DNA of 64,000 bases from Actinokineospora sp. (GCA_052390155.1 JBQTHF010000034.1), one strand, 5' to 3'; positions 1 to 22,614 are shown, counted from the first letter of the stretch. Notes: generated by a model from the sequence alone, not told the origin. Made by a program: numbers and translations.

Positions 1-20
1 AGATCCACTGCCCGACTGTG

Positions 21-60
21 AAGCACGGGGCCGGGGACGACATCCTCCGGCCCCGTGCTT
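21..60 (+). terminator. GC-rich stem-loop (attenuator/terminator type) just upstream of lanB
   Basis: Perfect 14-bp inverted repeat AAGCACGGGGCCGG / CCGGCCCCGTGCTT with a 12-nt loop. It begins at a frame-1 TGA (19-21). The position matches the attenuator hairpins often found between lanA and lanB (inference). Confidence 0.5.
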
Positions 61-61
61 G

Positions 62-92
62 CCCACCCACCCACCCACCCACCCACCCACCC
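62..92. repeat. (CCCA)7CCC tetranucleotide microsatellite, (GGGT)7 on the minus strand
   Basis: Seven perfect CCCA units plus CCC, read directly. It lies between the hairpin and the AGGAGGA Shine-Dalgarno (104-110) of lanB. Confidence 0.95.
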
Positions 93-114
93 GCTCGACG
101 GCTAGGAGGACTGG

Positions 115-3100
115 ATGCGTGCCAGCGACAGAAAGCCGCTCTACCGACACGTTGACGTCGCACTGCTGCGGGCCGCAGCAGCGCCGCTGACCAACACCCT
201 GAACCGTTGGCCCGACCTGACTGACATCGGCGGGTGCAGACACTGGCTGGAAGAGATGTGGTCCCAGCCCGATCTCGCCGACGCCGTGCGCCAAGCCAGC
301 CCGTCGCTGGGCGAGGGCGTTGACGCCATCCGCGCCGGGAATACCCTGGGCGACAAGCAGATCCGTAGCGCCACCCTGTCCACAGCGCGGTATCTGTTGC
401 GCAGCATCGGCCGCCCCACCCCGTTCGGCCTGTTCGCCGGAGTGGCCCCGGTGACCTTGGCAGGAACGGCCCAGGCGGACTGGGGCGAGGACCATCGGGG
501 GGTGGCCCGCGTCAACACCGGGTGGTTGGCCGACATCATCACGCGCGCTGAACGGTGCCCGGACTGCTGGAACGGCTCCACGTGGTGGTCACCGACCTCG
601 CGGTCCGCCGTGGTCCTCGACTCGAAGTGCGGCAAGGGCCGAACCGGGTGACCATCCGCTACACCCGCGCGGTCGCGGCCGTCCGCGACATGGCCGCGAC
701 CCCGGTCCGGTTCGGGACCTTGATCGACACGCTGACCGGGGACTTCACCGCCGACCGGTCAACGGTGCGGGACATGCTCACCGAACTCGTCCGGCAGGGC
801 TACCTGCTGACCAACCTGCGCGCTCCGTTCACCGTCACCGACCCGTTCGCCCATCTGATGGACCGACTACACGACGCCGACGCCGAGAGCCTGCCGACGA
901 TCGCGACCCTGGTAGGCGACCTCGACGCGATCCTGGCCAAACTACGCCACCACAACCATGAAACGACCACCCGAACCGAGCAGAGCCATCTCCGCGCGAC
1001 GGTCACCCGCCGGATGCGGGAACTCTCGCCGGAGGGGCGCACCCCGCTGGCGGTGGACCTGCTGCTCGACTGCGCGATTCGGCTACCCCACCAGGTCGCC
1101 CGGGAGATGGAGCGAGCCGCCGGCGCGCTGCTGCGCCTGACGCGGCAGCCGACCGGCGAGGCAACCTGGCGCGACTACCACTCGGCCTTCGTCGACAAGT
1201 ACGGCACGTCCACGGCGGTGCCGCTGGCCGAAGTCCTCGACCCGGACGCCGGCCTGGGGTATCCGGCCGGGTATCGCGGGAGCGTGCTGCCCGCGCCGAC
1301 ACCAGGGATCTCCGAGCGCGACGAGCGGCTGCTGGCGCTGGCCTGGCAGGCGATGGCTGACGGCACCCGCGAGATCGTCCTGACCGACGACGTTGTCGGC
1401 GAGTTGACCGACGAGACGTTCGACGAGCGCTACATCCCGCCGCACGTGGAGTTGTCCGCCCGCGTTCACGCCGCCACCGCGCAGGCGCTTGCGCGTGGCG
1501 ATTTCCTGCTCACCATCGCGCCCGCCCGCTCCGCAGGCACCCTCACCTCGCGGTTCACGCCGACGGCCACCGGGTCCGGCCTGGCGCAGGCGTACCGGGC
1601 GCTGCCCGCCGCCACCGATGGGGCGCTGCGGGTGCAGATGTCCTTCGGGCCGCTGTACCCGCACGCGGAGAACGTCTGCCGCGTCCCGGCCTACCTAGAC
1701 CACGTTCTCCCACTGGGAGAACACCGTGAGTCCGGCGACGAGCACCTGCTCACGATGGATGACCTGGCCATCACCGCGACCCGCGATCGGCTCTATCTGG
1801 TCAGCATCTCGCGTTGCCAAGTCGTTGAGCCGCAGGTGTTCCACGCACTCGCACTGGACAAGCAGCCCCCGCCGATGGCCCGGTTCCTGGCGCATCTGCC
1901 GCGGGCTTTCTCCGCCACCTGGTACCAGTTCGACTGGGGACGGCACCTCCGGTTGCCGTTCCTGCCACGGGTTCGCTACCGGCGGACCGTCCTGTCCCCG
2001 GCGCAGTGGCGGCTTGCCCCCGGCGACATCCCGCCCGGCCAGGCCGGATCCGACGAAGTGCGCCAGGTGCTCGACCGGTGGCGGCAGCGCTGGGGCTGCC
2101 CCGACGTAGTCGAGTTGCGCGACGCGGACCGTACGCTGCGCCTCACCCTCGATGAACCGGCCCACGCCGCACTCCTGCACACCCACCTCAAGCGACACGG
2201 CCAAGCGATCCTCTGTCCGGCCACCCCGGCGGCCGAGTACGGCTGGATCGACGGCCACGCCCACGAGATCGCACTCCCCCTCGTCAGCACCCGGCCCGCG
2301 GCGCCTGACCCACTAAGGGGCCACCTACCCGCCGTGACGAACACCCGCGGGCACCTGCCCGGCACTCTGGACGCCACCTGGATTTCGGCGAAGCTGTTCA
2401 CTCACCCCGAGCGGATGGTCGAGATTGTCACCGAGGCACTTCCCGGCCTGCTGACCACGCTCGACGCGCCCGCGTGCTGGTGGCTGCGTTACCGCAGCCC
2501 GCAGGAGACAGACCACCTGCGGCTGCGGCTGCGCACCACCCCCGGCCGCTACGCTGAGTCCTTGAACGCGGTCGGGGAGTGGGCACAGCGGATGCGGCAG
2601 GCGGGACTTCTCGGGCGGCTGGTGATCGACACCTACTACCCGGAAGTCGGCCGCTACGGGAACGGCGAGGCGATGGACGCCGCGGAGATCGTCTTCACCG
2701 CCGACTCCGCCACCGTGGCCGCCCTGCTGCGGCACCTGCCTGCCACCGACCCGGATCTCGCGCTAGTCGTGGCAAACATGGTGGGCATCGTCCACGGGTT
2801 CTTCGGCGATCCTGCTGAGGCGATGGACTGGCTGGCTGCCCAGCCGGTTCCGACTGCTGCGGCCATCGACCGGGCGGTGACCGATCGAGCGATCCGGCTC
2901 GCCACCGACCCGGCAGGATTGCTGTCGCCGTCCGGCTGGGACGTCGAAATCGGGCGGGCGTGGGAGCACCGGGCCGACGTCCTGGCCGACTACCGCAAGG
3001 CGTTGCCGCCGGAGGCGAACACCGACGTGGTGTTGGAGTCGCTGCTGCACATGCACCACAACCGGGCCGTCGGCATCGACCGGGACAGCGAACGCACGTG

Positions 3101-3164
3101 CCGTCGCCTGGCCCGCCAAGCCGCGCTCACCTGGCGAGCCCGCACCGACGGTGGTGCCCGGTGA
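115..3164 (+). pseudogene. lanB: class I lanthipeptide dehydratase LanB, interrupted by a 1-nt frameshift near 553-557
   Basis: ORF 115-651 has the LanB N-terminus (RYLLRSIGRPTPFGLFAGVAP). ORF 555-3164 continues the same protein in another frame (PGLLERLHVVV...) and ends in a SpaB_C-type elimination domain (WWLRYRSPQETDHLRLRLR, IDTYYPEVGRYG). Joined length is about 1016 aa, normal for LanB. An SD lies 4 nt before ATG 115. Pseudogene status depends on the frameshift being real. Confidence 0.85.
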
Positions 3165-4377
3165 CCTACACCAACCCGCACACGCCGCCGCCTGAGCACG
3201 ATCCCACACCCGGCTGGGGTCAGTCCCTGTCCAACGGGGCCGCCGGAATGGCGCTGCTGCACATCGCCTATGCCCACGCCGGGATCGGCGACTGGGCCAC
3301 CGCCCACCAGTGGGTCAAGGCCATGACCCGCGTCCCCGTGGCCGCCGACCCGGACGCTTGCCTGTACCGGGGCGCTCCGGCAGTCGCGTTCGCGCTGAGC
3401 ACCGCCACCCAACCCGCCTACGCCGGGGTGCTGGCCACCCTGGATCGGCACATCGCCGAGATCACCCGGCACCGGCTGGAACTGGCGCACGAGCGGATCG
3501 ACCGCGCAGAGTTGCCGAAGCTGCGGGAGTTCGACCTGATCAACGGGTTGACCGGCATCGGCGTCTACCTGCTCCAGGCCGGGCACACCGACCTGCTGCA
3601 CGGGGTGCTGGCCTACCTGGCACGGTCACCGTAGACGGCAGCACGGTGCCCGGCTGGTGGACGACCAACGGCCCCGCCGGCCGGCCTGACTCGCGCTGGC
3701 CGGGCGGCCACGCCAATCTGGGTCTGGCCCACGGTGTCAGTGGGCCGTTGATTCTGCTTGCTACCACGATGATTCACGGCGTCACCGTGCCCGGACAGCC
3801 TGAGGCGATCGACCAGGTCGACGCGTTCATCGGGCGCTGGTGCTGCGGCACCCGGACCCGCCCGTGGTGGCCGGGCATGATCTCCGCCCGAGAATGGAGG
3901 ACCGGCACCGTCGATCAGCCCGGCCCGCAGCGGCCGTCTTGGTGCTACGGCACCCCCGGCCTGGCCCGCGCCCGCCAGCTCGCAGCCCTGGCACTGGATC
4001 TGCCGCAGCGCAAGGTGCGGGCGGAGGCGGCGCTAGCCGGATGCGTCACCGACGACACCCAACTCGCCCAACTCGGCGACGACTCGCTCTGCCACGGATG
4101 GGCAGGGCTCGTGCACACCACGGTGCGGGCGGCGGCCGACGCCGGAGGCGACAGCGAACTGGCCCGTGTCGTGCCCGGCCTGGAGCGCCGCTGGCGGCAG
4201 CACCGCACACAGGCCCGTCCGCAACTGTCAGACCGACATGGGATGTTGGAGGGCAGCACGGGCATCGCGCTGGCCCGCCACAGCATCGAGCGCGCCGGTC
4301 CACCCTTCGGGTGGGACGCCTGCCTGCTCACCACCTGGCACAACGAGAAGAATCCGCACATGGAAGGAACCGGATGA
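3161..4377 (+). pseudogene. lanC: lanthipeptide cyclase LanC, interrupted by a 1-nt frameshift near 3617-3622
   Basis: GTG 3161 overlaps the lanB stop (GTGA). The first frame gives GWGQSLSNGAAGMALL and INGLTGIGVYLL and stops at 3634. The second frame continues with VDGSTVPGWW, GLAHGVSGP, SWCYGTPG and LCHGWAG (LanC catalytic/zinc-ligand motifs). About 405 aa when joined. Confidence 0.85.
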
Positions 4378-5582
4378 CCAACGCGACCAGCACCCGCCCC
4401 GAGGACCTGCGCGAGAAGATGGTCCAGCACATCAAGGACGCTGGCCACCTGTACTCCGCGCGCATCGAGCAGGTACTGCGGACAGTTCCCCGGCACCGGT
4501 TCGTGCCCGCCGCGTCCGCCGAGGACGCCTACGCCAACAAGGCCATCACCATCAAGCCCGGCGCAGACCGGCCCGCCAGTTGCATCTCCGTGCCTACGGT
4601 CGTGGCGATGATGCTCGGCCAGCTAGACCCCCAGCCCGGAGACCACGTCCTGGAGATCGGCGCCGGGACCGGCTACAACGCGGCATTGCTGGCCGAACTC
4701 GTCGGTGTCGAGGGCAGCGTCACCACCATCGACATCCACTCCGACGTCACCGCCCACGCCCGCCGCGCCCTCGACGAGACCGGCTACCAGCGGGTTCACG
4801 TGGTCACCGGCGACGGTGCTCTCGGCGACCCCGCATACGCCCCCTACAACAAGATCATCGTCACGGTGGGGCCGTGGGACCTGCCCCCGGCATGGTTCGA
4901 GCAGCTCGCCCCCGGCGGGACCCTCGTGGTCCCGCTGCACTGGCGCGGCCAGGCCCGCAGCGTCGCCTTCACCCGCAAGGACACCCATCTGCGAGCGGAG
5001 AACAGCCAGCTCTGCGGGTTCATCCCCATGATCGGCATCGTCCCCACCGGCGAACAGACCGGTGCCCTCGCCGAGGACGTCGCCCTGCATTGGGACGCTG
5101 ACCAGAACATCGACCCGGCCGCACTGCACGAGGTGTTCACCGGACCCGAGACCACCGTGTGGTCCGGCGCGTCCGTCATCGTCAACGAGCCGTTCGACCA
5201 CATCTGGCTGTGGCTGACCGCCACTGAACCCGGCGCCTGCCGGATCGCCGCCGAAGACGAGGCCATCGAGGCCGGGACCTGCCGCCCCGCGTTCGCCTAC
5301 CGCACCCCGGCCATTGTCGAGGGTGACTCCCTGGCGTACCTCACCAAACCCCGCCCCCTCGACCAGGACGGCGAACGCCGCTACGAACTCGGCGCCACCG
5401 GCCACGGCCCCCACGGCACCGTGCTGGCCGAGCGCCTGGTCGAGCAGATCCGTCGCTGGGACCGCGACCGGGCCGCTCAGCCCGTTATCGCCGCGTACCC
5501 CGCCGACACGGCCGACGCCAGCCTCCTGGCCGGCGGGGTGGTCATCGACAAGCGGAATATCCGGATGGTCGTCTCACCCTGA
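4374..5582 (+). CDS. PIMT-family O-methyltransferase of lanthipeptide clusters (LanS_A / FxLD-system type)
   Basis: ATG 4374 overlaps the lanC stop (ATGA). Intact 402 aa. The N-domain has protein-L-isoaspartate O-methyltransferase motifs (VPRHRFVP, VLEIGAGTGYNAALLA, VVTGDGALG), followed by a C-domain of about 200 aa. Operon position is directly after lanBC. Confidence 0.8.
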   Translation: MTNATSTRPEDLREKMVQHIKDAGHLYSARIEQVLRTVPRHRFVPAASAEDAYANKAITIKPGADRPASCISVPTVVAMMLGQLDPQPGDHVLEIGAGTGYNAALLAELVGVEGSVTTIDIHSDVTAHARRALDETGYQRVHVVTGDGALGDPAYAPYNKIIVTVGPWDLPPAWFEQLAPGGTLVVPLHWRGQARSVAFTRKDTHLRAENSQLCGFIPMIGIVPTGEQTGALAEDVALHWDADQNIDPAALHEVFTGPETTVWSGASVIVNEPFDHIWLWLTATEPGACRIAAEDEAIEAGTCRPAFAYRTPAIVEGDSLAYLTKPRPLDQDGERRYELGATGHGPHGTVLAERLVEQIRRWDRDRAAQPVIAAYPADTADASLLAGGVVIDKRNIRMVVSP

Positions 5583-5599
5583 ACAAGCCATCCCGATGG

Positions 5600-6160
5600 T
5601 CAGCCGGACACCCTTGAGTCAACACCGCCCGGCCCCTCGTGGGCAGGGCGGTGTTGCTGCAGTGCGAGGTTGTTGGCCGCGGGGATAGCCGCGGCTGGTC
5701 TGGTGGATCAGCGTTGACGCGTCATCGGAGTACAGGGTGTCCGACCGCCCCGCGAGGCCGAGGTGGTGGCGCAGGTAGCTGCCGGTTTCCTCCGGTGTCA
5801 TGGGCGGCATCGTGTAGCGCAGTGCGATCCGTTGGTCGAGGGCGGCCAGGGCGCCCATCTTCATGCGCCGCCGCTGGGTGGGCTGGCCGACGAGCAGGCA
5901 GGCGAACGGGCTGGTGGAGTCCATGTCGTGGTTGGTCAGCATCCTGATCGACTCGGGTTGGGAGTGGTCGAGCAGATGAGCCTCGTTCAGCACCGGGACC
6001 GGAGTCCGGCCCCGTTCGACTTTGTTCGGTGGTCAGGGCGTCGGCGGTCTGGGGAACGAGGGTGGCGTGATGGACCAGGGGTTGCCCGCCCAGGGCGGCG
6101 ACGATCTAGTGGTGGATGCCGCGGACCCCGACGGTCGGGTTGGGCAGATAGATCACCGTG
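5600..6160 (-). pseudogene. remnant of a transposition-helper AAA+ ATPase (ExeA/TniB-like)
   Basis: The minus-strand translation reads FTVIYLPNPTVGVRGIHH(TAG)IVAALGGQP...ALTTEQ // ERGRTPVPVLNEAHLLDHSQPESIRMLTNH...LLVGQP...LDQRIALRY...PEETGSYLRHHLGLAG...SRGYPR. This is ExeA/TniB-type architecture. The Walker A part is missing and there is an in-frame TAG (plus-strand CTA at 6106-6108). Frame breaks lie near 6020 and 5690, and Walker B reads NEAH instead of DEAH. No transposase gene is adjacent. Confidence 0.7.
5620..5656. terminator. stem-loop after the methyltransferase gene
   Basis: 11-bp perfect inverted repeat CAACACCGCCC / GGGCGGTGTTG with a 15-nt loop, 38 nt after the stop at 5582. Confidence 0.5.
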
Positions 6161-6311
6161 AAGCGGGAGCTGTCCAATGTGGACAAAGTGGCGCGGATCC
6201 TCACCGTCGACGCCGCCCGACTACCCACACACGCTCACCCGAATGTCGTAGAACACATGTGCGAGGGTAATCAAGTCGATGCCCAGAGTCACTGCCAAGG
6301 AGATAATGAGG

Positions 6312-6572
6312 ATGCCCATCACCGACCCGGTCATGGCCGTGCTGGACAGGCTGCCGCTCGCCGGTTCACAGCGCGGCGCGGCTGAGCCGACCTCGCGCGA
6401 GCGAGGCGGGCCCGCACCGTTCGGCCTACGGTTCGCTGTCACCCCCATGATGCCCTGCGGCAAGCACAATAGGACCTATTACACGGTGACGGTGAAGGAG
6501 GCTGACCGAGGTCAGCCAGGCGGCAAGGTCGTGACCATCCAGGACGACGTGCAGAAGGAGAGGGAGGACTGA
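6312..6572 (+). CDS. candidate graspetide (ATP-grasp-modified RiPP) precursor peptide
   Basis: AAGGAG lies 9 nt before ATG 6312; in-frame alternatives are 6279, 6306 and 6333. The C-terminal part is APFGLRFAVTPMMPCGKHNRTYYTVTVKEADRGQPGGKVVTIQDDVQKERED. It has a leader-like PFGLRF motif, a Thr-rich strand, a Gly/Pro turn and an acidic strand. The stop is 2 nt before the ATP-grasp start. Confidence 0.65.
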   Translation: MPITDPVMAVLDRLPLAGSQRGAAEPTSRERGGPAPFGLRFAVTPMMPCGKHNRTYYTVTVKEADRGQPGGKVVTIQDDVQKERED

Positions 6573-6574
6573 CC

Positions 6575-7350
6575 GTGGCTGTCCTGGCCGTCACCGCGCA
6601 CGACGATGACACTGCCACCAGGGTCTGTCGGGCGCTTGCGGCGCGGGGACAGGACTGCGCGAGGATGGATCTGGGCGACTTCCCCGAGAGGCTTTCGTTC
6701 ACCGCGTCCGGCCCTAGCCCTGTCTGGGCCGGATGGCTGTCCGATGGGACGCGCGACCTAATCTCTGGCGGACATCACGGCCGTCTACTGGCGACGGCCC
6801 ACCAGCTTCCGGCTTCCCGCCCAACTGGATGAGCAGGAACGGCGGTTCGCCTTGGCAGAGGCCCGGCAGGGCCTCGGTGGGTTGGTCTCCTGCCTGCCCG
6901 TTCCGTTTCGTCAACCAGGTGAAGCTGGTCTACGCGACCCTGGTCGGAGCGGGCGAGATCGACGACGCCGCCATTGCGTTGAGCCCCTGCCAGTTTCAGG
7001 TGTTCATTCCCAAGAGTCGAGACATTCGCCTGGTCGCGGTGGGGAGGGAGTGTTTCGCCGTCGCGATCCACGCGGGCTCGGACAAGTCCTATGTTGACTG
7101 GAGAGCCGACTACCCCGCACTGTCCTACGCGGCGGTTCAGACGCCCAACCACATCGCCGCGGCCGTCGCCGCCTACCTCAAGTGGTTCGGGTTGTCGTTC
7201 GGGTGCTTCGACTTCACCGTGTCAGCCGACACCGGGGAGTGGGTATTCCTTGAGTGCGGCCCGAATGCCCAATGGGGATGGTTGGAGCACGAGACGGGCC
7301 TGCCCATGGCCGACGCCATTGCCCGCAGTCTCACCGGAGACACCGCATGA
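6575..7350 (+). pseudogene. ATP-grasp RiPP maturase (graspetide ligase), two frameshifts and possibly an internal deletion
   Basis: GTG 6575 sits behind GGAGAGGGAGGA. Three frames must be joined. The first is VLAVTAHDDDTATRVCRALAARGQDCARMDLGDFP...WLSDGTRDL. The second, from about 6765, is LADITAVYWRRPTSFRLPAQLDEQERRFALAEARQGLGGLVSCLP. The third, from about 6900, is FVNQ...FQVFIPKSRDIRLVAVG...DWRADY...FGCFDFTV...WVFLECGPNAQWGWLE. The total is about 258 aa, shorter than I expect for this family. Confidence 0.75.
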
Positions 7351-8565
7351 CGGACGCCGACTGGGAGCCCAGGCTCGCCGCCCTCGTCGCCGCCCTCATC
7401 GAGGGTGGCCATCTGCGAAGCAGGGAATGGATGAAGGCGTTCGCCGCCACGCCCCGGCACCTGTTCACTCCTGAGGTCATCACCGTCACCCCACTCGGCT
7501 ACCGGACGCTTTCGGCCGCCGACCCCGGCGTCCGCCAGGAGTGGCTGTCGGCGGTCTACTCTGACGAATCCCTTGTCACGCAAGACAAACCTCATGCAGC
7601 CGGGTACCTGCTGCCCGCCGGGCAGCCGCTACGAGTCCCCACCAGTTCGTCGACGATGCCCTCCTTGATGGCCCGGATGCTGGAGGTCCTCGACATCGGC
7701 GACGACATGCGGGTCCTGGAGGTCGGCACCGGCACTGGCTACAACGCGGCCTTGCTGTCGCACCGCCTCGGTGACCGCCAGGTCGTCTCCATCGACATCG
7801 ACCCCTACCTGGTCGACCTGGCAGCCCAACCCCTCGCCCACCTCGCCCACACCCCAACGCTGCTCGCGGGCGACGGCGTGTACGGCGCCGCCGAGCACGG
7901 CCCTTACGACCGGATCATCGTACGCCACCGCCGCCGTCCCCGAGATCCCGCTGGCCTGGGTGCAGCAGCTCAAGCCCGGCGGGAAGATCCTGGCCAACCT
8001 GCGTGGTGACCTCGCAGGCGGAACCCTCTGCCTGTTGACCAAAGAAGGGGCCGATGACGAGGTCATCGGCCCGATCCTGCCCATCGGCGGGTACTTCATG
8101 TGGTTGCGATCCGATCCGTCCGACCCGCACCGGCCCCACGAGCACACCCCGGCCGCACAGCGCGGCACGACCAGCCGCAGCACAACCAGCCTCAACCCGG
8201 CCCAAGTCCCTGTCGACGAGGGATTCCTGTTTCTGCTCCAACTACAACTCCACGCGGCACAATCCCTCTGGCGAGGACAGGTGCACGACCCGGCTACCCG
8301 CGACCAGCAGGACGCGGTCATCGCCACCGCCGCCGATGGCTCCCGTGCCGAAGCACTTACCCACCCTGAGCCAGACGGCTCCTATCGAGTCGTCCAGTCC
8401 GGGCCACGTCGCATCTGGGATACCGTCGAGGCCACTCACCGGCTGTGGCGGCACCTCGGCCGACCTACACCCGACAAGTTCGGCGTCGTCGCCAACAGCG
8501 ACACCCAATTCGCTTGGTTCCGCAACGACGACAACTGGCGCCGCTGGCCCCTGCCCCTCGTCTGA
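7347..8565 (+). pseudogene. PIMT-family O-methyltransferase of the ATP-grasp RiPP system, frameshift near 7917-7922
   Basis: ATG 7347 overlaps the ATP-grasp stop (ATGA). The N-part has TPRHLFTP, VLEVGTGTGYNAALLS and LLAGDGVYG...YDRII. The protein continues in another frame with ATAAVPEIPLAWVQQLKPGGKILANL, plus a C-domain of about 200 aa. About 405 aa when joined. Confidence 0.8.
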
Positions 8566-8657
8566 CCACCGCAGGGCGTTCGAGACGCCGCGAAGCGTGC
8601 CGTCGTGCACGACGCATAGCGCGTAAGACTGTCTCTTGTGGACGGTCGGCCGTGCGG

Positions 8658-9587
<930 letters not shown>

Positions 9588-10880
9588 CTAGGACGATCCT
9601 CCGAGAGTCGTGGCCTGGCGCAACCCGGCGCGCAGACCCAGCAGGACGATGAGCAGCGTCAGGGCGGGCCCGACGATCTGCGCGACGGCGGCCGCGAGTA
9701 CCGCGTCGAGGGGAATCAGCACGATCGCCAACGTCACGACCGACCCGATGGTCCACCCCAGGGTGACCACCTGGTCGCGGTGCAGCGCCACCAGCGCGGG
9801 CTGTACGGCGTAGGCCGCGACCAGCACCACCGTGCTGAACGCCAGCATCGCCATGGTCGACGTGTCCAGCTCGGCGGCGGTGTTCAGGAATGTCCGCAGC
9901 ACCCACGGCCCCAGCAGCACGAAGATCACCGCGCCGAGCATCCCCACCCCGGCTACCCCGGCCAGCGTCAGCCGGACCCGGCGCGCCACGACACCCATCT
10001 CCCCGCGCGTGACGGCCGCGGTGAGGCTGGGCAGCAGCATGGTCTGGATCGGGAAGAACAGCAGCAGCGGTATCCGGGCCACCACCGCCGCCTGCCCGAA
10101 CGCCAGCGCGACCGCGCTGTCCTCGGCCAGCCGCGAGGTGACCGCCAGCGGCGCGAGGTTGGGCAGCAACTGGGCGAACAGTGTCGCCGTCGCCAGTGCC
10201 GCGAGCCCCTTGCCGATGTGCGGCTGCTCGGCGGCCGCGGCCACCGGCTCGCTGGCAGGCGCTGTGGAACCCTTGCGCAGCAAGACAACCCCGACCAGCA
10301 TCGCGACGACCGAGCCCGCCAGGTACACCGCGCCGTAGGCCCACGCGGTCGACGCGCCCGCCACCGCCAGCGCCACGCAGAACACCAGCCGCGCGACCCC
10401 CTCGACCGCGAGCGTGACCGCGTAGCCGCCGAACCGTTGCAGGCCGCCGAGCATCCCGCGCACCAGGTGCACGCCCGCCCCGATCACGGGCGTGGCCAAG
10501 ACCTCGACGAACAGCACCCAGTCGCCGTGCAGCGTCGCGCCGACCAGGATCGGGCTGAGCAGCAGCAGGATGGCCATCACCGCCGCGACCAGCCACAGCC
10601 CGCCCCGGCGGGTCTGGGCGATCGCCGAGCCCAGCGGCCGCCCGGCGGCGACCGCGCCGCTGACCGACCGGCTCGTCACCTGCTCCAGCGCGTAGAAGAT
10701 GCCCGGGCCGACGACGTTGACCAGGAAGTAGAACGCGATGGCGAGGTTCGCCTCGGCGCTGGAGAGGGTGCGGCCGGTCAGCGCGACGAAGACGTAGCCC
10801 GCGATCCCGAACAGGATCAGCCCCGCCGCCATCTGGGCGGGCGGCCCGAAGACCCGCCGCAGCCGTGTCGAGGTCAGCAC
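9588..10880 (-). CDS. polytopic membrane protein, polysaccharide flippase-like (MOP/Wzx family)
   Basis: 430 aa and highly hydrophobic, with about 12-14 predicted helices. Composition and length resemble Wzx-type oligosaccharide flippases. It is in an operon with the epimerase. Confidence 0.5.
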   Translation of the reverse strand: MLTSTRLRRVFGPPAQMAAGLILFGIAGYVFVALTGRTLSSAEANLAIAFYFLVNVVGPGIFYALEQVTSRSVSGAVAAGRPLGSAIAQTRRGGLWLVAAVMAILLLLSPILVGATLHGDWVLFVEVLATPVIGAGVHLVRGMLGGLQRFGGYAVTLAVEGVARLVFCVALAVAGASTAWAYGAVYLAGSVVAMLVGVVLLRKGSTAPASEPVAAAAEQPHIGKGLAALATATLFAQLLPNLAPLAVTSRLAEDSAVALAFGQAAVVARIPLLLFFPIQTMLLPSLTAAVTRGEMGVVARRVRLTLAGVAGVGMLGAVIFVLLGPWVLRTFLNTAAELDTSTMAMLAFSTVVLVAAYAVQPALVALHRDQVVTLGWTIGSVVTLAIVLIPLDAVLAAAVAQIVGPALTLLIVLLGLRAGLRQATTLGGSS

Positions 10881-11148
10881 CCGGCCAACTGTAGCCGGCG
10901 CGGTCGTGCCGCCGGTGGCTGCGGTCGGCCGTGGCCAACCGGGTACCCTGGGTCGTCCCCGAGCCCGTGGAAGTTGGCGGGGACGGCCGTGCGCGACGAC
11001 GTCCGCATCCGGTCCTCGACCACGAGATGGCGCTCACGTTGCCTCTGGAGGACAACGAGGTATGGCAGGTAGCACTCGCACCACGAGTGGCACTCCGAAG
11101 ACCCGCAACCAGCCGAAGTCGGAGGGTCGGGTGGAGACTTCGCCCGCC

Positions 11149-12999
11149 ATGGACCCGACCGGCAGGATGGTGGCCCAGCGCGGCCTCTTCCGCGGGCCGG
11201 ACCCGGTGTGCCCGGACGAGCTGTACGCCACCATCGTGCGGGGCACCGCCGACCGCGAGCGGCAGCGGCTGGTCGTAGGCCCGCACTCGACGGTCAGCAC
11301 CGACACCTACTTCGGCCGGTTCCCCGCCGCCTACTGGCAGCGCTGGACCGTGGTGGACGAGGTCGCGGTCGAGCTGGTGCTGTCCGGCTCCGCGCGGCTC
11401 GCGCTGATCGCGTCCGACTTCAACGGCGAGACCCGGCCCGAAGCGGTCCGGGTTGTCGAGGACGCCCAGAGCCAGACCGTCCGGCTGACAGCCAAGCTCG
11501 ACAAGTTCTTCGACGGCGGCTCGCTCTGGCTCGACCTCACCACCGAGGGCACCGAGCTGGTCGTGGAGCAGTTGCGGTGGACGGTGCCTGCGCCCGAGCG
11601 CGTCCGCCAGACCTCGGTCGTCATCTGCACGTTCAACCGGGCCGACGACTGCGTCCGCACCCTCGGCGCGCTCGCCGCCGACCAGGACGCGCTCACCGTG
11701 CTGGAGACGGTGCACGTCGTGGACCAGGGCACCGACACGGTCGAGTCCCGCCCCGGCTTCCCGGACCTGGAGAAGGCGCTCGACGGCCGGTTGCGCTACC
11801 TGCGCCAGCCCAACCTCGGCGGCGCGGGCGGCTTCGGCCGCGGCATGTACGAGGTCGTCAAGGCCGGTGACGCCAACGTCCTGCTGATGGACGACGACGT
11901 GCTGTGCGAGCCCGAGATCGCCGTGCGGCTCAGCGCGTTCGCCAACCGCACCGGCAAGCCGACCCTGGTCGGCGGCCAGATGCTGCGGCTGCTGCACCCC
12001 ACCAAGCTCATCGCGGGCGCCGAGTACGCCGACTTCGCGCACCTGCAGCCGGGCGCGGTGGTCATGAACGCCCTGGACGACGTCGACCTGCTCGCCGAGG
12101 CTCTCGACGAGGACGGCGAGCCGACCGGCAAGCCCAACCGCGGCGACCGCAGGGTCGACGCCGACTACAACGCCTGGTGGTCGTGCCTGATCCCGAACGA
12201 GGTGGCCAGGGAGCTGGGCCTGCCGCTGCCGCTGTTCTTCCAGTGGGACGACGTCGAGTACGGCTACCGGGCGCGCGCCCGCGGCTACGCGACGGTCACG
12301 CTGCCCGGCGCCGGACTGTGGCACGCGGACTTCGACTGGAAGGACGCGGACAAGTGGAACGAGTACTTCGCGGTGCGCAACGCGATGATCGTCTCCGCCC
12401 TGCACTCCGCGTTCCCGCCCAAGCAGGTCGCCCGGGTGCTGGTGGCGCGGGTCGTGCGGGCGCTGCTGAGCATGCAGTACGGCCTGGCCGCGACGCTGAT
12501 CACGGGCGCTGAGGACTTCCTGGTCGGCCCGTCGGTCCTGGCCGACGGCGGCAAGCGGGCGGCGGCGGAGATCCGCCGGATCCGCGCCATGTACCCAGAC
12601 ACCGTGGCGCACCCGATCGCCGGGCTGGCCGACATCGGCCTCGACCACGTGCCGATGGTGCAGGCCGCGCCCGAGCCGAAGCTGCACCGGCTGGTGTTGC
12701 TCAAGCGGCTGCTGCACCTCTCGCTCGGCAAGGCGAACTACGACATCGGGGCCATCCCCGCCGACGACTCGTCCTGGTGGCACGTGTCGCAGTTCCAGCG
12801 GGCCGTCGTCACCGACGCCGCCCAGGACAGCGTCCGGGTCCGGGTGCGCGACCGGGCGATGATGGTCGAACTGGGCAAGCGGCTGGCGGTCGTTGCTCGC
12901 AGGCTGCTGGCCGAGGGGCCCCGCCTCCAGCAGGAGTACCGGGCGGCGGTCCCGGAGCTGATCAGCGAGGAAAACTGGAAGCGGCTCTACGGTCTGTAG
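11149..12999 (+). CDS. GlfT2-like galactofuranosyltransferase paralog (diverged copy)
   Basis: Collinear with the canonical GlfT2 downstream: FGRFPAAYWQRWT, VVICTFNR, LGGAGGFGRGMY, LLMDDDV, YNAWWSCLIP, PLPLFFQWDDVEYGYRA, TLPGAGLWHADF, YFAVRN. The start is ATG 11149 (MDPTGR...) or ATG 11062. Confidence 0.75.
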   Translation: MDPTGRMVAQRGLFRGPDPVCPDELYATIVRGTADRERQRLVVGPHSTVSTDTYFGRFPAAYWQRWTVVDEVAVELVLSGSARLALIASDFNGETRPEAVRVVEDAQSQTVRLTAKLDKFFDGGSLWLDLTTEGTELVVEQLRWTVPAPERVRQTSVVICTFNRADDCVRTLGALAADQDALTVLETVHVVDQGTDTVESRPGFPDLEKALDGRLRYLRQPNLGGAGGFGRGMYEVVKAGDANVLLMDDDVLCEPEIAVRLSAFANRTGKPTLVGGQMLRLLHPTKLIAGAEYADFAHLQPGAVVMNALDDVDLLAEALDEDGEPTGKPNRGDRRVDADYNAWWSCLIPNEVARELGLPLPLFFQWDDVEYGYRARARGYATVTLPGAGLWHADFDWKDADKWNEYFAVRNAMIVSALHSAFPPKQVARVLVARVVRALLSMQYGLAATLITGAEDFLVGPSVLADGGKRAAAEIRRIRAMYPDTVAHPIAGLADIGLDHVPMVQAAPEPKLHRLVLLKRLLHLSLGKANYDIGAIPADDSSWWHVSQFQRAVVTDAAQDSVRVRVRDRAMMVELGKRLAVVARRLLAEGPRLQQEYRAAVPELISEENWKRLYGL

Positions 13000-13047
13000 T
13001 GGCCGCCCGCGCGACCCGCGGGCGGGCTCGGGGGGCCGACGGAGTTA

Positions 13048-13070
13048 GCTCGGGAAGATCGTTCCCGAGT
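13048..13070 (+). terminator. small hairpin in the spacer between the two GlfT2 genes
   Basis: CTCGGGAA-GATCG-TTCCCGAG (8-bp stem). A second GC hairpin, GCCCGCG-CGACC-CGCGGGC, lies at about 13007-13025. There is no clear U-tract. Confidence 0.3.
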
Positions 13071-13107
13071 CGATCACGAGCCTGGACGGCTCGTTGGAGG
13101 GACAGAC

Positions 13108-15006
13108 GTGACCGAGCAGAGGGACCCGACCGGTCCTGCCGTCGATGTGCACCGGGTGTTGCAGCGCGTCATCCTGCCCAGGGATGCCGACCCGCTCGAC
13201 GTGCGACCGCTCTACCTCGACGAGCCGGAGAACGTGCACAGCCACGTCTCGTCCCGCCGGTCGGTGACCGTGCCGACCTCGGCCAAGGTGTCCTTCGCCG
13301 CCTACTTCAACGCCTTTCCGGCGAGCTACTGGAAGCGCTGGACCACGGTCGAGCGCGTCGTGCTGCGGATCAACGTGCGCGGCGGCGGCCGGATCGACGT
13401 CTACCGGTCCAAGCCGAACGGCGACCAGATCCACCTGCAGGGTGCCCCGGTCCGCACGGGCGACGACTGGGACACCGTCGAGTTCACGATCAGCCTCGCG
13501 CCGTTCGAGGACGGCGGCTGGATCTGGTTCGACGTGTTCACCGACGACTCCACCCTGGAGGTCGCCGACGCCGCGTGGCTGTCCGAGACGCCCCTGCCGC
13601 CGCAGCAGCTGGCCATCGGCACCACGACCTTCAACCGTGTCGACGACTGCGTGTCCTCGCTGCTCGCGCTGAGCGAGGACCCGGCCGTGCTCGCCGTGAT
13701 CAGCCGCGTCTACGTGGCCGACCAGGGCTCGCAGAAGATCAGCGGCCACCCGCGCTACGCCGAGGCGGCCGAGCGGCTCGGCGACCGGCTGCAGGTCATC
13801 GAGCAGGACAACCTCGGCGGCTCGGGCGGGTTCACCCGGGCGCTGTACGAGTCGATCGAGCACACCGACGTCGACCAGGTGCTGCTGCTCGACGACGACA
13901 TCGCGCTGGAGCCGGACAGCATCCTGCGGGCCAACGCGTTCGCGCGCGCGTCGGCCAAGCCGGTCGTCGTCGGCGGCCACATGCTCAACCTGCAGGCCAA
14001 GTCCCGGCTGCACAGCATGGGCGAGATAGTCGACCTCAGCGCGTGCGTGTGGCGCGCCGCGCCCGACGCCGTGGTCGACCACGACTTCGGCGCCAAGTCG
14101 CTGCGCGAGACCAAGCAGGCGCACCGGCGCATCAACGCCACCTACAACGGCTGGTGGATGTGCCTGTTCCCGCGCGCGGTCGTGGAGAAGTGCGGGCTGC
14201 CGCTGCCGCTGTTCATCAAGTGGGACGACGCCGAGTACTCGCTGCGCGCCCTGGCCAACGGCTTCCCGACCGTCACCCTGCCCGGTGCCGCGGTGTGGCA
14301 CATGCCGTGGACGGACAAGAACGACACCACCGACTGGACTGTCTACTTCCACCAGCGCAACCGGCTGATCATGGCGGCGCTGCACAGCCCGTACGACGTC
14401 CGCAAGACGCTGCTGCTGCAGGGCCTGCGGACCTCCGTGCGCAGGCTGCTGTCCATGGAGTACTCGACCGTCGCGATCGAGCAGAAGGCCATCGAGGACT
14501 TCCTGGCAGGCCCCGGCAGGCTGTTCGAGCTGCTGCGCACCGGCTTGCCGGAGGTGCAGCAGGTGCGCAAGAAGTACACCGACGCGCAGGTCCTGCCCTC
14601 GGCCCAGGAGTTCCCGCCGCCGACCTTCGACATGGTCAAGGCCGAGCAGATGCTGCGCCCGCCCGTGCACCCGGTGAAGATCGCCGCCCGGGCCTCGCAG
14701 GCGCTCGTGCACAACCTGCGCGCGCCCGCGCAGGCCGCGGGGGAGCGCCCGCAGGTCAACATCCCGGCGGGCAGCGCGCTGTGGTTCCTGCTGGGCAACC
14801 TGGACAGCGCGACGGTGTCCAACGCCGACGGCAGCGGTGTGGCCTTCCGCAGGCGCGACCCGAAGGTCTTCCGCGAGCTGTCGGCGCGGGCCATGCAGAA
14901 CTACCGCAAGCTGGTCCGCGAGTGGCCCCAGTTGCGCGAGGAGTACCGGGCCGCGCTACCGGAGCTGACCTCGGTCGAGTCGTGGCGCAAGGTCTTCGAG
15001 AACTGA
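13108..15006 (+). CDS. glfT2: bifunctional UDP-galactofuranosyltransferase GlfT2
   Basis: 632 aa with GGAGGGA before GTG 13108. There are long stretches that I recall as near-identical to M. tuberculosis Rv3808c: SFAAYFNAFPASYWKRWT, FEDGGWIWFD, NLGGSGGF, YNGWWMCLFPR, PLPLFIKWDDAEY, TLPGAAVWHM, YFHQRNRL, EYSTVAIEQKAIEDFLAGP. Confidence 0.92.
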   Translation: MTEQRDPTGPAVDVHRVLQRVILPRDADPLDVRPLYLDEPENVHSHVSSRRSVTVPTSAKVSFAAYFNAFPASYWKRWTTVERVVLRINVRGGGRIDVYRSKPNGDQIHLQGAPVRTGDDWDTVEFTISLAPFEDGGWIWFDVFTDDSTLEVADAAWLSETPLPPQQLAIGTTTFNRVDDCVSSLLALSEDPAVLAVISRVYVADQGSQKISGHPRYAEAAERLGDRLQVIEQDNLGGSGGFTRALYESIEHTDVDQVLLLDDDIALEPDSILRANAFARASAKPVVVGGHMLNLQAKSRLHSMGEIVDLSACVWRAAPDAVVDHDFGAKSLRETKQAHRRINATYNGWWMCLFPRAVVEKCGLPLPLFIKWDDAEYSLRALANGFPTVTLPGAAVWHMPWTDKNDTTDWTVYFHQRNRLIMAALHSPYDVRKTLLLQGLRTSVRRLLSMEYSTVAIEQKAIEDFLAGPGRLFELLRTGLPEVQQVRKKYTDAQVLPSAQEFPPPTFDMVKAEQMLRPPVHPVKIAARASQALVHNLRAPAQAAGERPQVNIPAGSALWFLLGNLDSATVSNADGSGVAFRRRDPKVFRELSARAMQNYRKLVREWPQLREEYRAALPELTSVESWRKVFEN

Positions 15007-15013
15007 CCCGGAC

Positions 15014-15060
15014 AACACACTGGGCCCGTCCCCTTCGCGGGGGGACGGGCCCAGTGTGTT
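15014..15060. terminator. bidirectional terminator hairpin between glfT2 and cspA
   Basis: AACACACTGGGCCCGTCCCC-TTCGCGG-GGGGACGGGCCCAGTGTGTT, a stem of about 20 bp between the convergent stops at 15006 and 15073. Confidence 0.8.
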
Positions 15061-15072
15061 ACTTATCGCAGA

Positions 15073-15276
15073 TCAGACGGCCTTGACGCCGGTGGCCTGC
15101 GGGCCTTTCTGGCCCTGGCCGATCTCGAACTCCACGCGCTGGTTCTCGTCCAGGCTCTTGAAGCCCGAGCCCTGGATCTCCGAGTAGTGCACGAAGACGT
15201 CGGCGCCGCCGTCGTCCGGCTGGATGAAGCCGAAGCCCTTCTCGGAGTTGAACCACTTCACTGTGCCCTGTGCCAC
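15073..15276 (-). CDS. cspA: cold-shock protein (CspA family)
   Basis: 67 aa, [34 protein letters not shown], with the RNP1/RNP2 motifs. Confidence 0.97.
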
Positions 15277-15473
15277 GTCTATCTCCTCAACAGGTACCGA
15301 TTAACGAACGTGCGCGGGTGCACACGCGTGGTCGGTTTCAGACGGCGACTTCTCCGGCTTGACCTGGAGGAAAACCGCGCGCCCGCAACGATCTCTTGCG
15401 AGCGTGATCTAACACGTACTCAAGAAAATTTACGACCGTTGACAGTCAACCACACACTGGTTCCCTCGCGCAC

Positions 15474-15911
15474 GTGCCAACTGTGGCGGGTCGGGAGGCC
15501 CGCCACACCGGGTCGGGGGTTGCGGTGGTCCACCGGCTGGGAGACGCTTTCGGAGTGAGCGAGCTCGCCAGTGACCAGCCCGAGTCCATCGCACTGCACC
15601 TCGACGAAGCCGGAGTCTCCGTCGACCTGCCCCGTCCGGCCAATGATCGCGACCAAGTCCAAGGTGTGCCCTACCGCCCGGTCGAGTTCCGCGACGACGA
15701 TCTGCCCGCCGCTCTGGAGCGGGCCGCGTCCTGGCTGCGCAGCACGCAGGAATGGCTCGGAGAACCCGTGGACGTCATCGCCATCCATCTCGACTACGAC
15801 GACGGCGACGGCGCGCCGTACTACGACGTCAAGCTGCTGTGCAACGAGGAAGACCTCGCGGGCGCCCCGATCGCGATGCGCGAGCACGCCTCGAAGGCTG
15901 TGAGCGGCTAG
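15474..15911 (+). CDS. hypothetical protein (start uncertain)
   Basis: ORF with GC3-rich codon usage in its 3' two thirds. Its stop overlaps the start of the acyltransferase gene. No recognisable domain. GTG 15556 is an alternative start. Confidence 0.4.
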   Translation: MPTVAGREARHTGSGVAVVHRLGDAFGVSELASDQPESIALHLDEAGVSVDLPRPANDRDQVQGVPYRPVEFRDDDLPAALERAASWLRSTQEWLGEPVDVIAIHLDYDDGDGAPYYDVKLLCNEEDLAGAPIAMREHASKAVSG

Positions 15912-16648: not shown

Positions 16649-16667
16649 CCCGGCCGGGTCAGTACAG

Positions 16668-18776: not shown

Positions 18777-18891
18777 CTGTGTAGCCGTCTCCAAGTACCG
18801 TCCACCCCTACACAGCGTCCGTGGCCATCCCGTGCGGTCGAGAAGTGTACGAGACGCGCGCCGTCCGACCTGCACTAACGCGCGATCCGGG

Positions 18892-19701: not shown

Positions 19702-19776
19702 CTCTGCATCCTCCCTGACGCGAGATGCGCGCGAAGGGTGTTCCCCGTTACCGTACGGCCGATTCGAGGGGGAGAA

Positions 19777-20328: not shown

Positions 20329-20337
20329 GTTCGAGTC

Positions 20338-21312: not shown

Positions 21313-22614
<1,302 letters not shown>

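What the first reader, a model, noticed from the sequence alone, without database searches (positions are those of the whole stretch)
6312..6572. Apparently intact graspetide precursor with a beta-hairpin-like core (TYYTVTV / turn / IQDDVQKERED)
Seen: the ORF ends ...GGPAPFGLRFAVTPMMPCGKHNRTYYTVTVKEADRGQPGGKVVTIQDDVQKERED. Its stop is 2 nt before the ATP-grasp GTG, which has a very strong SD. Established: PF(x)L(x)F/Y-type leader motifs are recognised by ATP-grasp RiPP ligases. Graspetide cores pair Thr/Ser donors with Asp/Glu acceptors. Inference: three Thr on one strand and six acidic residues on the other flank a Gly/Pro turn. That predicts a stacked, multi-ester hairpin. No Asp-Gly or Asp-Ser dipeptide, the most succinimide-prone contexts, is present. 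The methyltransferase target would therefore be D-R, D-D, D-V or the C-terminal Asp, an unusual site. The peptide gene is unbroken although both tailoring genes are frameshifted.
Basis: partly seen in the sequence, partly recalled or inferred. Interest (0 to 1): 0.7.

Follow-up and report, generated by a model that had tools for sequence, protein, structure and literature searches.

The report
Decayed graspimiditide precursor with scrambled loop
The small gene does belong to a known class of ring-forming modified peptides (graspimiditides), but this copy is a relic: two compensating one-base shifts have scrambled its key loop, and both modifying enzyme genes next to it are broken.

Summary
The ORF at 6312-6572 exists as quoted. 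It belongs to a conserved, mostly 86-aa peptide family of Pseudonocardiaceae-type actinomycetes. In about 25 of 29 related loci this peptide gene sits directly upstream of an ATP-grasp maturase (TIGR04187) and a PIMT-like methyltransferase (TIGR04188). That is the signature of graspimiditides (group 13 graspetides), a known RiPP class.

The gene is not intact. A +1 insertion at 6503/6504 and a -1 deletion between 6520 and 6521 put codons 65-70 out of register.
- The literal reading is D-R-G-Q-P-G.
- The repaired reading is T-E-V-S-Q-D, against a family consensus of T-Q-V-S-R-D.

The scramble removes Thr65 and the Asp70-Gly71 dipeptide, each present in 69 of 70 relatives. AlphaFold2 places Asp70-Gly71 at the tip of the predicted hairpin. 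So the "Gly/Pro turn" and the "missing Asp-Gly" are mutational artefacts, not an unusual methylation site.

The ATP-grasp gene has two frameshifts and a 61-codon deletion. The methyltransferase gene has a 4-nt insertion. An independent assembly is 100% identical, and control genes elsewhere in the window are full-length, so general sequencing error is unlikely.

Verdict: a pseudogenised member of a known kind, of low interest.

The parts
6297..6302 (+). Shine-Dalgarno-like AAGGAG of the precursor gene, 9 nt before ATG 6312
   Evidence: Read directly from the sequence. The start at 6312 is supported by the 86-aa length and the MP..DPVMAV N-termini of homologues.
6312..6572 (+). Graspimiditide-type precursor gene (86 codons plus TGA). 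The ORF is open, but codons 65-70 are out of register.
   Evidence: ORF list; 52 homologues; alignments; conserved position before the ATP-grasp and methyltransferase genes.
6417..6434 (+). Leader motif P36-F-G-L-R-F41. It is comparable to the RPFG motif of ThfA homologues, to VRPFGL in AmdA, and to PFFARFL in microviridins.
   Evidence: P36 69/70, F37 70/70, G38 70/70, R40 68/70. Literature: 10.1101/2021.05.19.444834, PMC13003496 supplement, PMC8939145.
6465..6569 (+). Core region, H52 to D86. It holds the invariant His52, the Thr-rich strand (T55, T58, T60 and ancestral T65), the loop, and the acidic strand (D78, E83, E85, D86).
   Evidence: Conservation table. AlphaFold2 hairpin with strands 56-69 and 72-85 in an intact homologue, core pLDDT 76-83.
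6503..6521 (+). Scrambled segment. There is an extra base at 6503 or 6504 (GC[T]G|ACC) and a missing A between 6520 and 6521 (GAC read as G^C). Literal codons 65-70 read D-R-G-Q-P-G; repaired they read T-E-V-S-Q-D. Thr65 and Asp70 of the Asp-Gly site are lost.
   Evidence: Gapped alignments. Register test: 30% versus 74% identity over 11 orthologues. T65, D70 and G71 are each 69/70 in relatives. All cores that extend through the loop carry D-G.
6563..6567 (+). GGAGG Shine-Dalgarno of the ATP-grasp gene, embedded in the precursor's C-terminal E-R-E-D codons
   Evidence: Read directly from the sequence. The same 2-nt spacing between peptide stop and ATP-grasp start is seen in L001 and L004.
6575..7350 (+). 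ATP-grasp peptide maturase pseudogene (TIGR04187 type). There is a +1 frameshift at 6761-6764, a +1 T insertion in the T-run at 6906-6908, and a deletion of 61 codons at about 6915/6916. The deletion covers residues 113-173 of the intact orthologue, including the AELK.AQL and VVYKP motifs.
   Evidence: NCBIfam fragments match profile positions 1-61 and 175-311 of 312. tblastn finds the gene in three frames. Alignment with L004, L009, L006 and AmdB.
7347..8565 (+). PIMT-like O-methyltransferase pseudogene (TIGR04188 type). Its ATG overlaps the ATP-grasp TGA (ATGA). A 4-nt insertion, CGCC at 7923-7926, breaks the frame. With those 4 nt removed it reads YDRIIVTAAVPEIP, as in relatives, and is 404 aa long.
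   Evidence: NCBIfam halves match profile positions 1-180 and 180-360; tblastn; repaired alignment.

Best explanation
Window 6260-8565 is the relic of a three-gene graspimiditide cluster: precursor A, ATP-grasp B and PIMT-like methyltransferase M.

How intact relatives most likely work (steps 1-3 rest on analogy with characterised systems):
1. The leader motif PFG(L)RF recruits the ATP-grasp enzyme.
2. The enzyme esterifies Thr side chains of the N-terminal strand to Asp/Glu side chains of the C-terminal strand. This makes a stem-loop hairpin. The predicted pairs are T65-D78, T60-E83 and T58-E85, all in one register (i+j = 143).
3. The methyltransferase then methylates the loop Asp70, which cyclises onto Gly71 to give an aspartimide.

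What is shown for this copy: all three genes are inactivated.
- The precursor carries a compensating +1/-1 indel pair. The ORF stays open, but codons 65-70 are rewritten. This removes the candidate innermost ester donor Thr65 and the Asp-Gly site.
- The ATP-grasp gene has two frameshifts and lacks 61 codons of its central domain.
- The methyltransferase gene has a 4-nt insertion.

The open reading frame of the peptide gene is therefore a chance survival, not evidence of function. No modified peptide is expected from this locus.
For: - Family and synteny: 52 protein homologues. The A-B-M order is found in about 25 of 29 related loci.
- Enzyme identity: fragments hit TIGR04187 and TIGR04188. Intact orthologous ATP-grasp proteins pass the TIGR04187 cut-off (369 and 376 bits against 350). 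The L004 orthologue is 44% identical to AmdB, the amycolimiditide ATP-grasp.
- Compensated frameshift in the precursor.
- The loop D-G is present in every related core that extends through the loop and in 69/70 unique relatives.
- AlphaFold2 of an intact homologue puts D70-G71 at the 2-residue turn between strands 56-69 and 72-85, with core pLDDT 76-83. The literal window sequence gives a lower pLDDT (58) and a widened turn.
- Enzyme lesions.
- The lesions are real rather than assembly noise. The Logan contig from SRR34758881 is 100% identical, without gaps, over 14,167 nt. Ten control ORFs elsewhere in the window cover their Pfam profiles in one frame. The lesions include a 183-nt deletion and a 4-nt insertion, which are not homopolymer-type errors.
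- Mechanism by analogy: esters come first, then Asp methylation and aspartimide formation at a loop Asp-Gly. The innermost cross-link is required first, and the methyltransferase needs at least two cross-links (PMC13001092; PMC13003496; 10.1101/2023.06.21.545981).
Against: - The two indels in the peptide gene compensate each other within 18 nt. This could also reflect selection to keep the ORF open.
- The Logan assembly may derive from the same reads as the window, so read-level errors are not formally excluded.
- The ester pairs and the role of Thr65 are inferred from conservation and register, not measured.
- AlphaFold2 confidence is only moderate.
- I could not search the rest of the genome for a second, intact enzyme pair.
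Confidence: 0.85

Rival explanations
1. Sequencing or assembly artefact. The cluster is intact in the organism, and the small indels, including the compensated pair in the peptide gene, are errors in the consensus sequence.
For: Four of the six small lesions are single-base indels, and one lies in a short T-run at 6906-6908. Five or more lesions cluster in 2.3 kb.
Against: - An independently built Logan contig is 100% identical with no gaps over 14,167 nt.
- The ATP-grasp gene lacks 61 codons, and the methyltransferase gene carries a 4-nt CGCC insertion. Neither is a typical error.
- Ten long control ORFs across 13-60 kb cover their Pfam profiles in a single frame (ORF map).
- Similar decay is seen in other assemblies of relatives: L002, L003, L005, L027, L014 and L029.
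Confidence: 0.08
2. The literal peptide, with an ADRGQPGG turn and no Asp-Gly, is a functional variant precursor. Its esters are installed, and a non-canonical Asp (D-R, D-D, D-V or the C-terminal Asp) is methylated, possibly by a second enzyme pair encoded elsewhere.
For: - The ORF is open with good translation signals.
- Asp-Arg is among the n+1 contexts predicted bioinformatically for some graspimiditide clusters (10.1101/2023.06.21.545981).
- Some relatives' genomes carry two paralogous clusters: L018 and L025 come from one MAG, as do L026 and L028.
Against: - The variant loop is out-of-frame ancestral sequence.
- It is unique among 70 relatives and occurs in a single cluster of one sequence in the 5.8-billion-protein database.
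- It removes Thr65 (69/70).
- The cognate B and M genes are dead, and there is no second copy in the 64-kb window.
- In amycolimiditide, shifting the aspartimide site by 1-2 residues is generally not tolerated, and the innermost ester is obligatory (PMC13001092; PMC13003496).
Confidence: 0.04
3. The ORF is not a RiPP precursor at all. It would be a chance open frame in GC-rich DNA, or a small protein unrelated to the ATP-grasp gene.
For: No Pfam or NCBIfam model matches it, even at E <= 10. High-GC DNA carries many spurious ORFs.
Against: - 52 homologues with conserved length and motifs.
- Constant position 2-8 nt upstream of the ATP-grasp gene in about 25 loci.
- Leader and core architecture typical of graspimiditides.
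Confidence: 0.01

Closest known systems
Amycolimiditide (AmdA/AmdB/AmdM, Amycolatopsis cihanbeyliensis), a graspimiditide in Cluster 5 of Choi et al.
   Same: - Same A-B-M gene order, and the producer is an Amycolatopsis, like some relatives in this family.
- The orthologous ATP-grasp is 44% identical to AmdB.
- The leader has PFGL.
- A conserved His precedes the Thr-rich strand.
- The loop has Asp-Gly, the C-terminal strand is acidic, and the peptide ends in ...RED.
- Stem-loop hairpin logic.
   Different: - The precursors are not significantly similar overall (BLASTP E = 0.17).
- The core here is longer (H52-D86, 35 aa against 29 aa).
- The register-matched acceptors include Glu (E83, E85), whereas the four characterised graspimiditides use Thr-Asp esters.
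- The window copy has lost the Asp-Gly and Thr65, and its enzyme genes are pseudogenes.
Fuscimiditide (ThfA/ThfB/ThfM, Thermobifida fusca) and albusimiditide (GsaA/B/M, Streptomyces albus)
   Same: - ATP-grasp plus PIMT-like methyltransferase.
- Esters form first, then an aspartimide at a loop Asp-Gly.
- A conserved RPFG-type leader motif is found in ThfA homologues.
- The equal-spacing ('sequence-wise parallel') cross-link rule fits T65-D78, T60-E83 and T58-E85 here.
   Different: - The core sequences are different.
- Fuscimiditide has the B-A-M order.
- Nothing about this family has been tested chemically.
- This copy is non-functional.
Microviridins (MdnA with MdnB/MdnC, MvdC/MvdD)
   Same: - ATP-grasp macrocyclisation of a leader-guided precursor.
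- The leader motif PFGLRFA resembles PFFARFL (P-F-x-x-R-F).
   Different: - The ATP-grasp scores far below the MvdC and MvdD equivalog cut-offs: 145 and 165 bits against 425 and 475.
- There is no lactam-forming second ligase.
- The topology is a hairpin, not a cage.
- A PIMT-like methyltransferase is present.
OlvA(BCSA)-type FxLD lanthipeptide clusters ('lanthimiditides')
   Same: The neighbouring cluster at window 1-5582 has LanB, LanC and an FxLD-system PIMT-like methyltransferase (TIGR04364, 437 bits). Both clusters use PIMT homologues acting on Asp.
   Different: It is a different RiPP class, based on lanthionine rings. It is a neighbour of the finding, not part of it. Its LanB and LanC genes are also split.

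Membership tests
Graspimiditide / group 13 graspetide biosynthetic cluster | Precursor gene next to an ATP-grasp maturase and a PIMT-like O-methyltransferase (A-B-M order) | tested here: met
   Order and spacing: peptide stop at 6572, GTG at 6575, and an ATGA overlap at 7347-7350. The same order is found in about 25 of 29 related loci.
Graspimiditide / group 13 graspetide biosynthetic cluster | Functional ATP-grasp peptide maturase of the SAV_5884 type (TIGR04187) | tested here: not met
   Homology is clear: E = 3e-9 and 1.2e-45 for the fragments, and orthologues pass the cut-off. But the gene has two frameshifts and lacks 61 codons, including the VVYKP and AELK.AQL motifs shared with AmdB.
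Graspimiditide / group 13 graspetide biosynthetic cluster | Functional PIMT-homologous O-methyltransferase (TIGR04188) | tested here: not met
   The two halves hit TIGR04188 at 7.8e-62 and 7.4e-33. A 4-nt insertion at 7923-7926 splits the frame.
Graspimiditide / group 13 graspetide biosynthetic cluster | Core with a Thr/Ser-rich N-terminal stem and an Asp/Glu-rich C-terminal stem | tested here: met
   T55, T58 and T60, then D78, D79, E83, E85 and D86. These are conserved in relatives. A hairpin is predicted.
Graspimiditide / group 13 graspetide biosynthetic cluster | Conserved Asp-Xaa (mostly Asp-Gly) in the loop between the stems, the aspartimidylation site | tested here: not met
   The literal ORF reads P69-G70-G71. 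Relatives have D70 and G71 in 69/70 each. Asp-Gly is restored only by repairing the two indels.
Graspimiditide / group 13 graspetide biosynthetic cluster | Leader with a conserved (R)PFG-type motif, and a conserved His upstream of the donor stem | tested here: met
   P36-F37-G38 and H52 are invariant or nearly so. Compared with ThfA RPFG, AmdA VRPFGL and the conserved His in Clusters 1, 2, 3a and 5.
Graspimiditide / group 13 graspetide biosynthetic cluster | Omega-ester cross-links and an aspartimide in the mature peptide | not testable with these tools
   Needs co-expression and LC-MS/MS or NMR.
Amycolimiditide precursor cluster (Cluster 5 of Choi et al. 2023) | Sequence similarity of the precursor (last ~50 residues) to AmdA | tested here: not met
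   BLASTP of the repaired peptide against AmdA gives E = 0.17, with only the PFG region aligning. No match to PDB chains.
Curated precursor models (NCBIfam, Pfam) | Match to any curated ATP-grasp-target peptide model | tested here: not met
   No families at E <= 10 for the window peptide, and none at E <= 0.001 for the intact L004 orthologue.
Microviridin family | MvdC/MvdD-type ligases at equivalog level and a PFFARFL leader | tested here: not met
   The orthologue scores 145 and 165 bits against cut-offs of 425 and 475. The leader is PFGLRFA, which is similar but not the same motif.

The most novel reading that the evidence does not exclude
The peptide gene has been kept open by selection rather than by luck. 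After the first frameshift, a second one restored the frame. The precursor would still matter, either because a paralogous ATP-grasp/methyltransferase pair elsewhere in the genome serves it in trans, or because it has a role independent of the enzymes. In that case compensated frameshifts would be a natural way of rewriting a RiPP loop.

Hints in favour:
- Relatives also keep an intact precursor after clean deletion of B and most of M (L002, L003) or after truncation of B (L005).
- Two MAGs carry two paralogous clusters.
Probability: 0.06. Interest if true: 0.5.

Novelty: new member of a known kind. Interest (0 to 1): 0.18.

Why it matters
It matters little for discovery. The class (graspimiditides) and its logic are published, and this copy is dead.

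Three modest points remain.
1. The "unusual methylation site" puzzle disappears. In GC-rich DNA an open small ORF is not evidence of intactness, and RiPP precursors should be checked against their family at the DNA level.
2. The intact relatives form a precursor family that I could not link to any characterised peptide. It has a compact TYYTVTVKEATQVSRDG...RERED core, and its register-matched acceptors include Glu. They would be better expression targets than this locus.
3. The cluster decays repeatedly in relatives, which may bear on how dispensable these still function-less peptides are.

Tried and rejected
- Pfam and NCBIfam scans of the peptide found nothing, even at E <= 10.
- PDB sequence searches with the whole precursor and with the repaired core gave no relevant match. 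Amycolimiditide (8DYM) and fuscimiditide (7LIF) were not retrieved.
- A full-text search for TYYTVTV, KTYYTV or PFGLRFAV found no paper.
- The amycolimiditide paper (PMC10038102) and the published graspimiditide paper (PMC10993234) are not held, and the preprint has no supplements. I therefore could not check whether this precursor family is one of the eight published clusters.
- A sliding GC3 frame-plot was too noisy to map frameshifts. I replaced it with a stop-to-stop ORF map and Pfam coverage controls.
- MAFFT on the equal-length peptide genes hid the indels by aligning without gaps. A pairwise gapped alignment was needed.
- Alternative starts at ATG 6279 or 6306 were considered and rejected. 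Homologues start at the equivalent of 6312, and 6306 lies only 3 nt after the AAGGAG.
- No second copy of the enzyme genes exists in the window. The only other tblastn hit is the FxLD methyltransferase at 4419-4937.

Full report
**1. The observation**

- An AAGGAG lies 9 nt before ATG 6312.
- The stop TGA (6570-6572) is followed two bases later by the GTG of the next gene (6575).
- A GGAGG (6563-6567) is embedded in the precursor's last codons, E-R-E-D.
- The literal peptide contains no Asp-Gly or Asp-Ser.

The ORF is not a chance frame. A search of the 5.8-billion-protein collection returned 52 homologues with E-values down to 1.7e-28. Almost all are 86 aa long and come from Pseudonocardiaceae-type MAGs, metagenomes and Amycolatopsis minnesotensis. 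They begin MP..DPVMAV, which fixes the start at 6312 rather than 6279 or 6306.

**2. The surroundings**

- Downstream, 6575-7350 matches the ATP-grasp ribosomal peptide maturase model TIGR04187, but only at profile positions 1-61 and 175-311, and in different frames.
- 7347-8565 matches TIGR04188, the 'ATP-grasp peptide maturase system methyltransferase', as two halves in two frames.
- Upstream lie a class I lanthipeptide dehydratase, a LanC and an FxLD-system PIMT-like methyltransferase.
- Between the two clusters sits a fragment of an ExeA-like ATPase on the minus strand.

**3. Relatives**

Five loci came from exact-protein look-ups (L001-L004 for relatives, plus L031, the window's own Logan contig) and 26 from the genome collection. 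About 25 of the 29 related loci show the same order: 86-aa peptide, then ATP-grasp, then PIMT-like methyltransferase, usually with full-length single-frame enzymes.
- Intact orthologous ATP-grasp proteins pass the TIGR04187 cut-off (369 and 376 bits against 350).
- The L004 ATP-grasp is 44% identical to AmdB, the experimentally characterised amycolimiditide ligase. The AmdB sequence comes from the PMC13003496 supplement.

This gene triad defines graspimiditides, the group 13 graspetides of Ramesh et al. Genome-mining studies report 962 to 1432 BGCs. Four members have been characterised, and all are stem-loop hairpins with Thr-Asp esters and an aspartimide at a loop Asp-Gly (10.1101/2023.06.21.545981; PMC13001092).

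**4. The peptide gene is not intact**

In 70 unique relatives the loop reads ...K-E-A-T-Q-V-S-R-D-G-K.... Thr65, Asp70 and Gly71 are each present in 69 of 70. The window reads K-E-A-D-R-G-Q-P-G-G-K.

MAFFT aligned the equal-length genes without gaps and so hid the cause. A pairwise alignment with a heavy gap penalty nevertheless opened two gaps against each of three orthologues. One is an extra base at 6503/6504. The other is a missing A between 6520 and 6521.

Over 11 orthologous genes of identical length, the segment behaves as follows:

| Register | Identity to orthologues |
|---|---|
| Literal, 18 nt | 30% |
| Shifted by one base | 74% |
| Flanking sequence | 84% |

Repair gives A-T-E-V-S-Q-D-G-K. 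All six restored residues occur in the family, and four are the commonest residue. None of the six literal residues is. Every related core that extends through the loop carries Asp-Gly; the window is the only exception.

So the 'Gly/Pro turn' and the 'absence of Asp-Gly' are products of a compensated frameshift. The inference of a non-canonical methylation site therefore falls.

**5. The enzyme genes are dead**

Against the intact 317-aa orthologue, the window's ATP-grasp gene is read in three frames:

| Orthologue residues | Window coordinates | Frame |
|---|---|---|
| 1-61 | 6575-6760 | 2 |
| 63-110 | 6765-6908 | 3 |
| from 174 onwards | 6910-7347 | 1 |

- There are two +1 insertions, one at 6761-6764 and one in the T-run at 6906-6908.
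- Exactly 61 residues (113-173) are missing. They include the AELK(P)AQL and VVYKP motifs shared with AmdB.
- The methyltransferase gene carries a 4-nt CGCC insertion at 7923-7926. Removing it restores YDRIIVTAAVPEIP and a 404-aa protein, like L001's.

**6. Real lesions or errors?**

- A Logan assembly of run SRR34758881 is 100% identical to window 1-14167 without a single gap.
- Ten long ORFs between 13 and 60 kb cover their Pfam profiles in one frame, for example Aminotran_5 at 1-371 of 371 and DUF885 at 1-531 of 532. The ORF map shows long high-GC3 genes throughout 8.6-64 kb.
- A 183-nt deletion and a 4-nt insertion are not typical consensus errors.

I therefore take the lesions as real. 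One caveat: the Logan contig may rest on the same reads as the window.

**7. How the family most likely works**

These steps are inferred, by analogy with characterised graspimiditides.
1. The invariant leader motif P36-F-G-L-R-F41 would dock the ATP-grasp enzyme. It resembles RPFG in ThfA homologues, VRPFGL in AmdA and PFFARFL in microviridins.
2. Three conserved Thr-acid pairs lie in one hairpin register: T65+D78 = T60+E83 = T58+E85 = 143. This fits the 'equal spacing' rule of characterised graspimiditides. Asp70-Gly71 lies just N-terminal of the centre, as described for the class.
3. AlphaFold2 on an intact relative, with the family alignment, gives strands 56-69 and 72-85 with Asp70-Gly71 as the two-residue turn. 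Core pLDDT is 76-83. With the literal window sequence the model is poorer, with mean pLDDT 58 and the turn widened to 68-73.
4. In amycolimiditide the innermost ester must form first, and the methyltransferase needs at least two esters.

The literal peptide lacks Thr65 and Asp70. It would therefore probably be a poor substrate even for intact enzymes.

**8. Comparison and novelty**

The precursor matches no curated model and is not significantly similar to AmdA (E = 0.17). No paper contains its motifs. I could not access the published cluster lists.

The family is thus probably an uncharacterised sequence cluster within a known class. Glu residues sit in two of the three register-matched acceptor positions. 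The window copy is a pseudogenised member. Interest is low.

**9. Residual novel reading**

The frame-restoring second indel, together with the survival of intact precursors after loss of B and M in relatives, leaves a small chance that the precursor is kept by selection. In L002 and L003 the peptide stop is followed directly by the last ~160 nt of the methyltransferase gene. I rate this chance at about 6%.

Noticed in passing
window 1-5582 (and L031 194-376, just left of the window): An FxLD-type class I lanthipeptide cluster sits immediately upstream.
- LanB is split into 178-aa and 838-aa gene calls, joining at about window 555-650.
- LanC is split at about 3634-3646.
- The FxLD-system PIMT-like methyltransferase (4380-5582, TIGR04364, 437 bits) is intact.
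- The FxLD precursor (...EDPFALDVQIITDV...NTDDGCDPTCASACVTGGV) lies just off the window edge.

So two aspartimide-type RiPP clusters lie side by side, and both are partly decayed.
   Followed up: partly
window 5619-5993 (-) and 6106-6228 (-): Fragments of an ExeA-like AAA ATPase (partial TIGR03015 match, profile 129-233 of 269) lie between the two RiPP clusters. This is probably a remnant of a mobile element. Homology of the window to orthologous graspimiditide loci begins only about 50 nt upstream of ATG 6312.
   Followed up: partly
L002 8001-8428; L003 1411-1779: These are 'orphan' precursors. An intact 86-aa peptide gene is followed directly by the last ~160 nt of the methyltransferase gene. 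This is a clean deletion of the ATP-grasp gene and most of the methyltransferase gene. In L002, SAM-cycle genes (AdoHcy hydrolase, PfkB kinase, SAM synthetase) lie convergent right after it.
   Followed up: partly
L001 938-1762; L005 6265-6576; L007 about 7125; L010 about 6415-6503; L014 6001-6222; L027 6176-7911; L029 6001-6231: The cluster decays repeatedly in relatives.
- L001: a 44-aa in-frame deletion in the ATP-grasp.
- L005: the ATP-grasp is truncated at about 103 aa and there is no methyltransferase.
- L007 and L010: frameshifts in the ATP-grasp.
- L014: a premature stop in the peptide just after the D-G-K.
- L027: an ATP-grasp deletion and a methyltransferase frameshift.
- L029: a frameshifted peptide core.

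Some of these may be assembly errors in MAGs.
   Followed up: partly
L028 5085-6958 (-); L018 5-3516: An FxLD-type methyltransferase (66% identical) and a LanC (63%) lie next to the graspimiditide cluster in L028. An FxLD-like methyltransferase and a LanB lie upstream of it in L018. The pairing of the two PIMT-dependent RiPP clusters therefore recurs in other Pseudonocardiaceae MAGs.
   Followed up: no
L012 8501-10007; also L010 11311-12258, L019 6588-7157, L024 9899-10480: There are second ATP-grasp-like and/or PIMT-like hits just downstream of the graspimiditide cluster in several relatives. These may be tandem second RiPP clusters. L018 and L025 come from one MAG, as do L026 and L028, so some genomes hold two paralogous clusters.
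   Followed up: no
window 6558-6577: The precursor's conserved C-terminal codons E-R-E-D (GAGAGGGAGGAC) double as the Shine-Dalgarno sequence of the ATP-grasp gene. The ATP-grasp stop and the methyltransferase start overlap as ATGA (7347-7350). Together these suggest translational coupling of A, B and M (same spacing in L001 and L004).
   Followed up: partly
window 10906-22614: This is an arabinogalactan-type cell-wall gene region: two GlfT2-like galactofuranosyltransferases, an AT3-SGNH acyltransferase and UDP-galactopyranose mutase. All are full-length, consistent with a host in the Pseudonocardiales or Mycobacteriales. GC3 of these genes (0.92-0.97) is higher than in the RiPP region (0.81-0.87), which hints that the RiPP island was acquired.
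   Followed up: no
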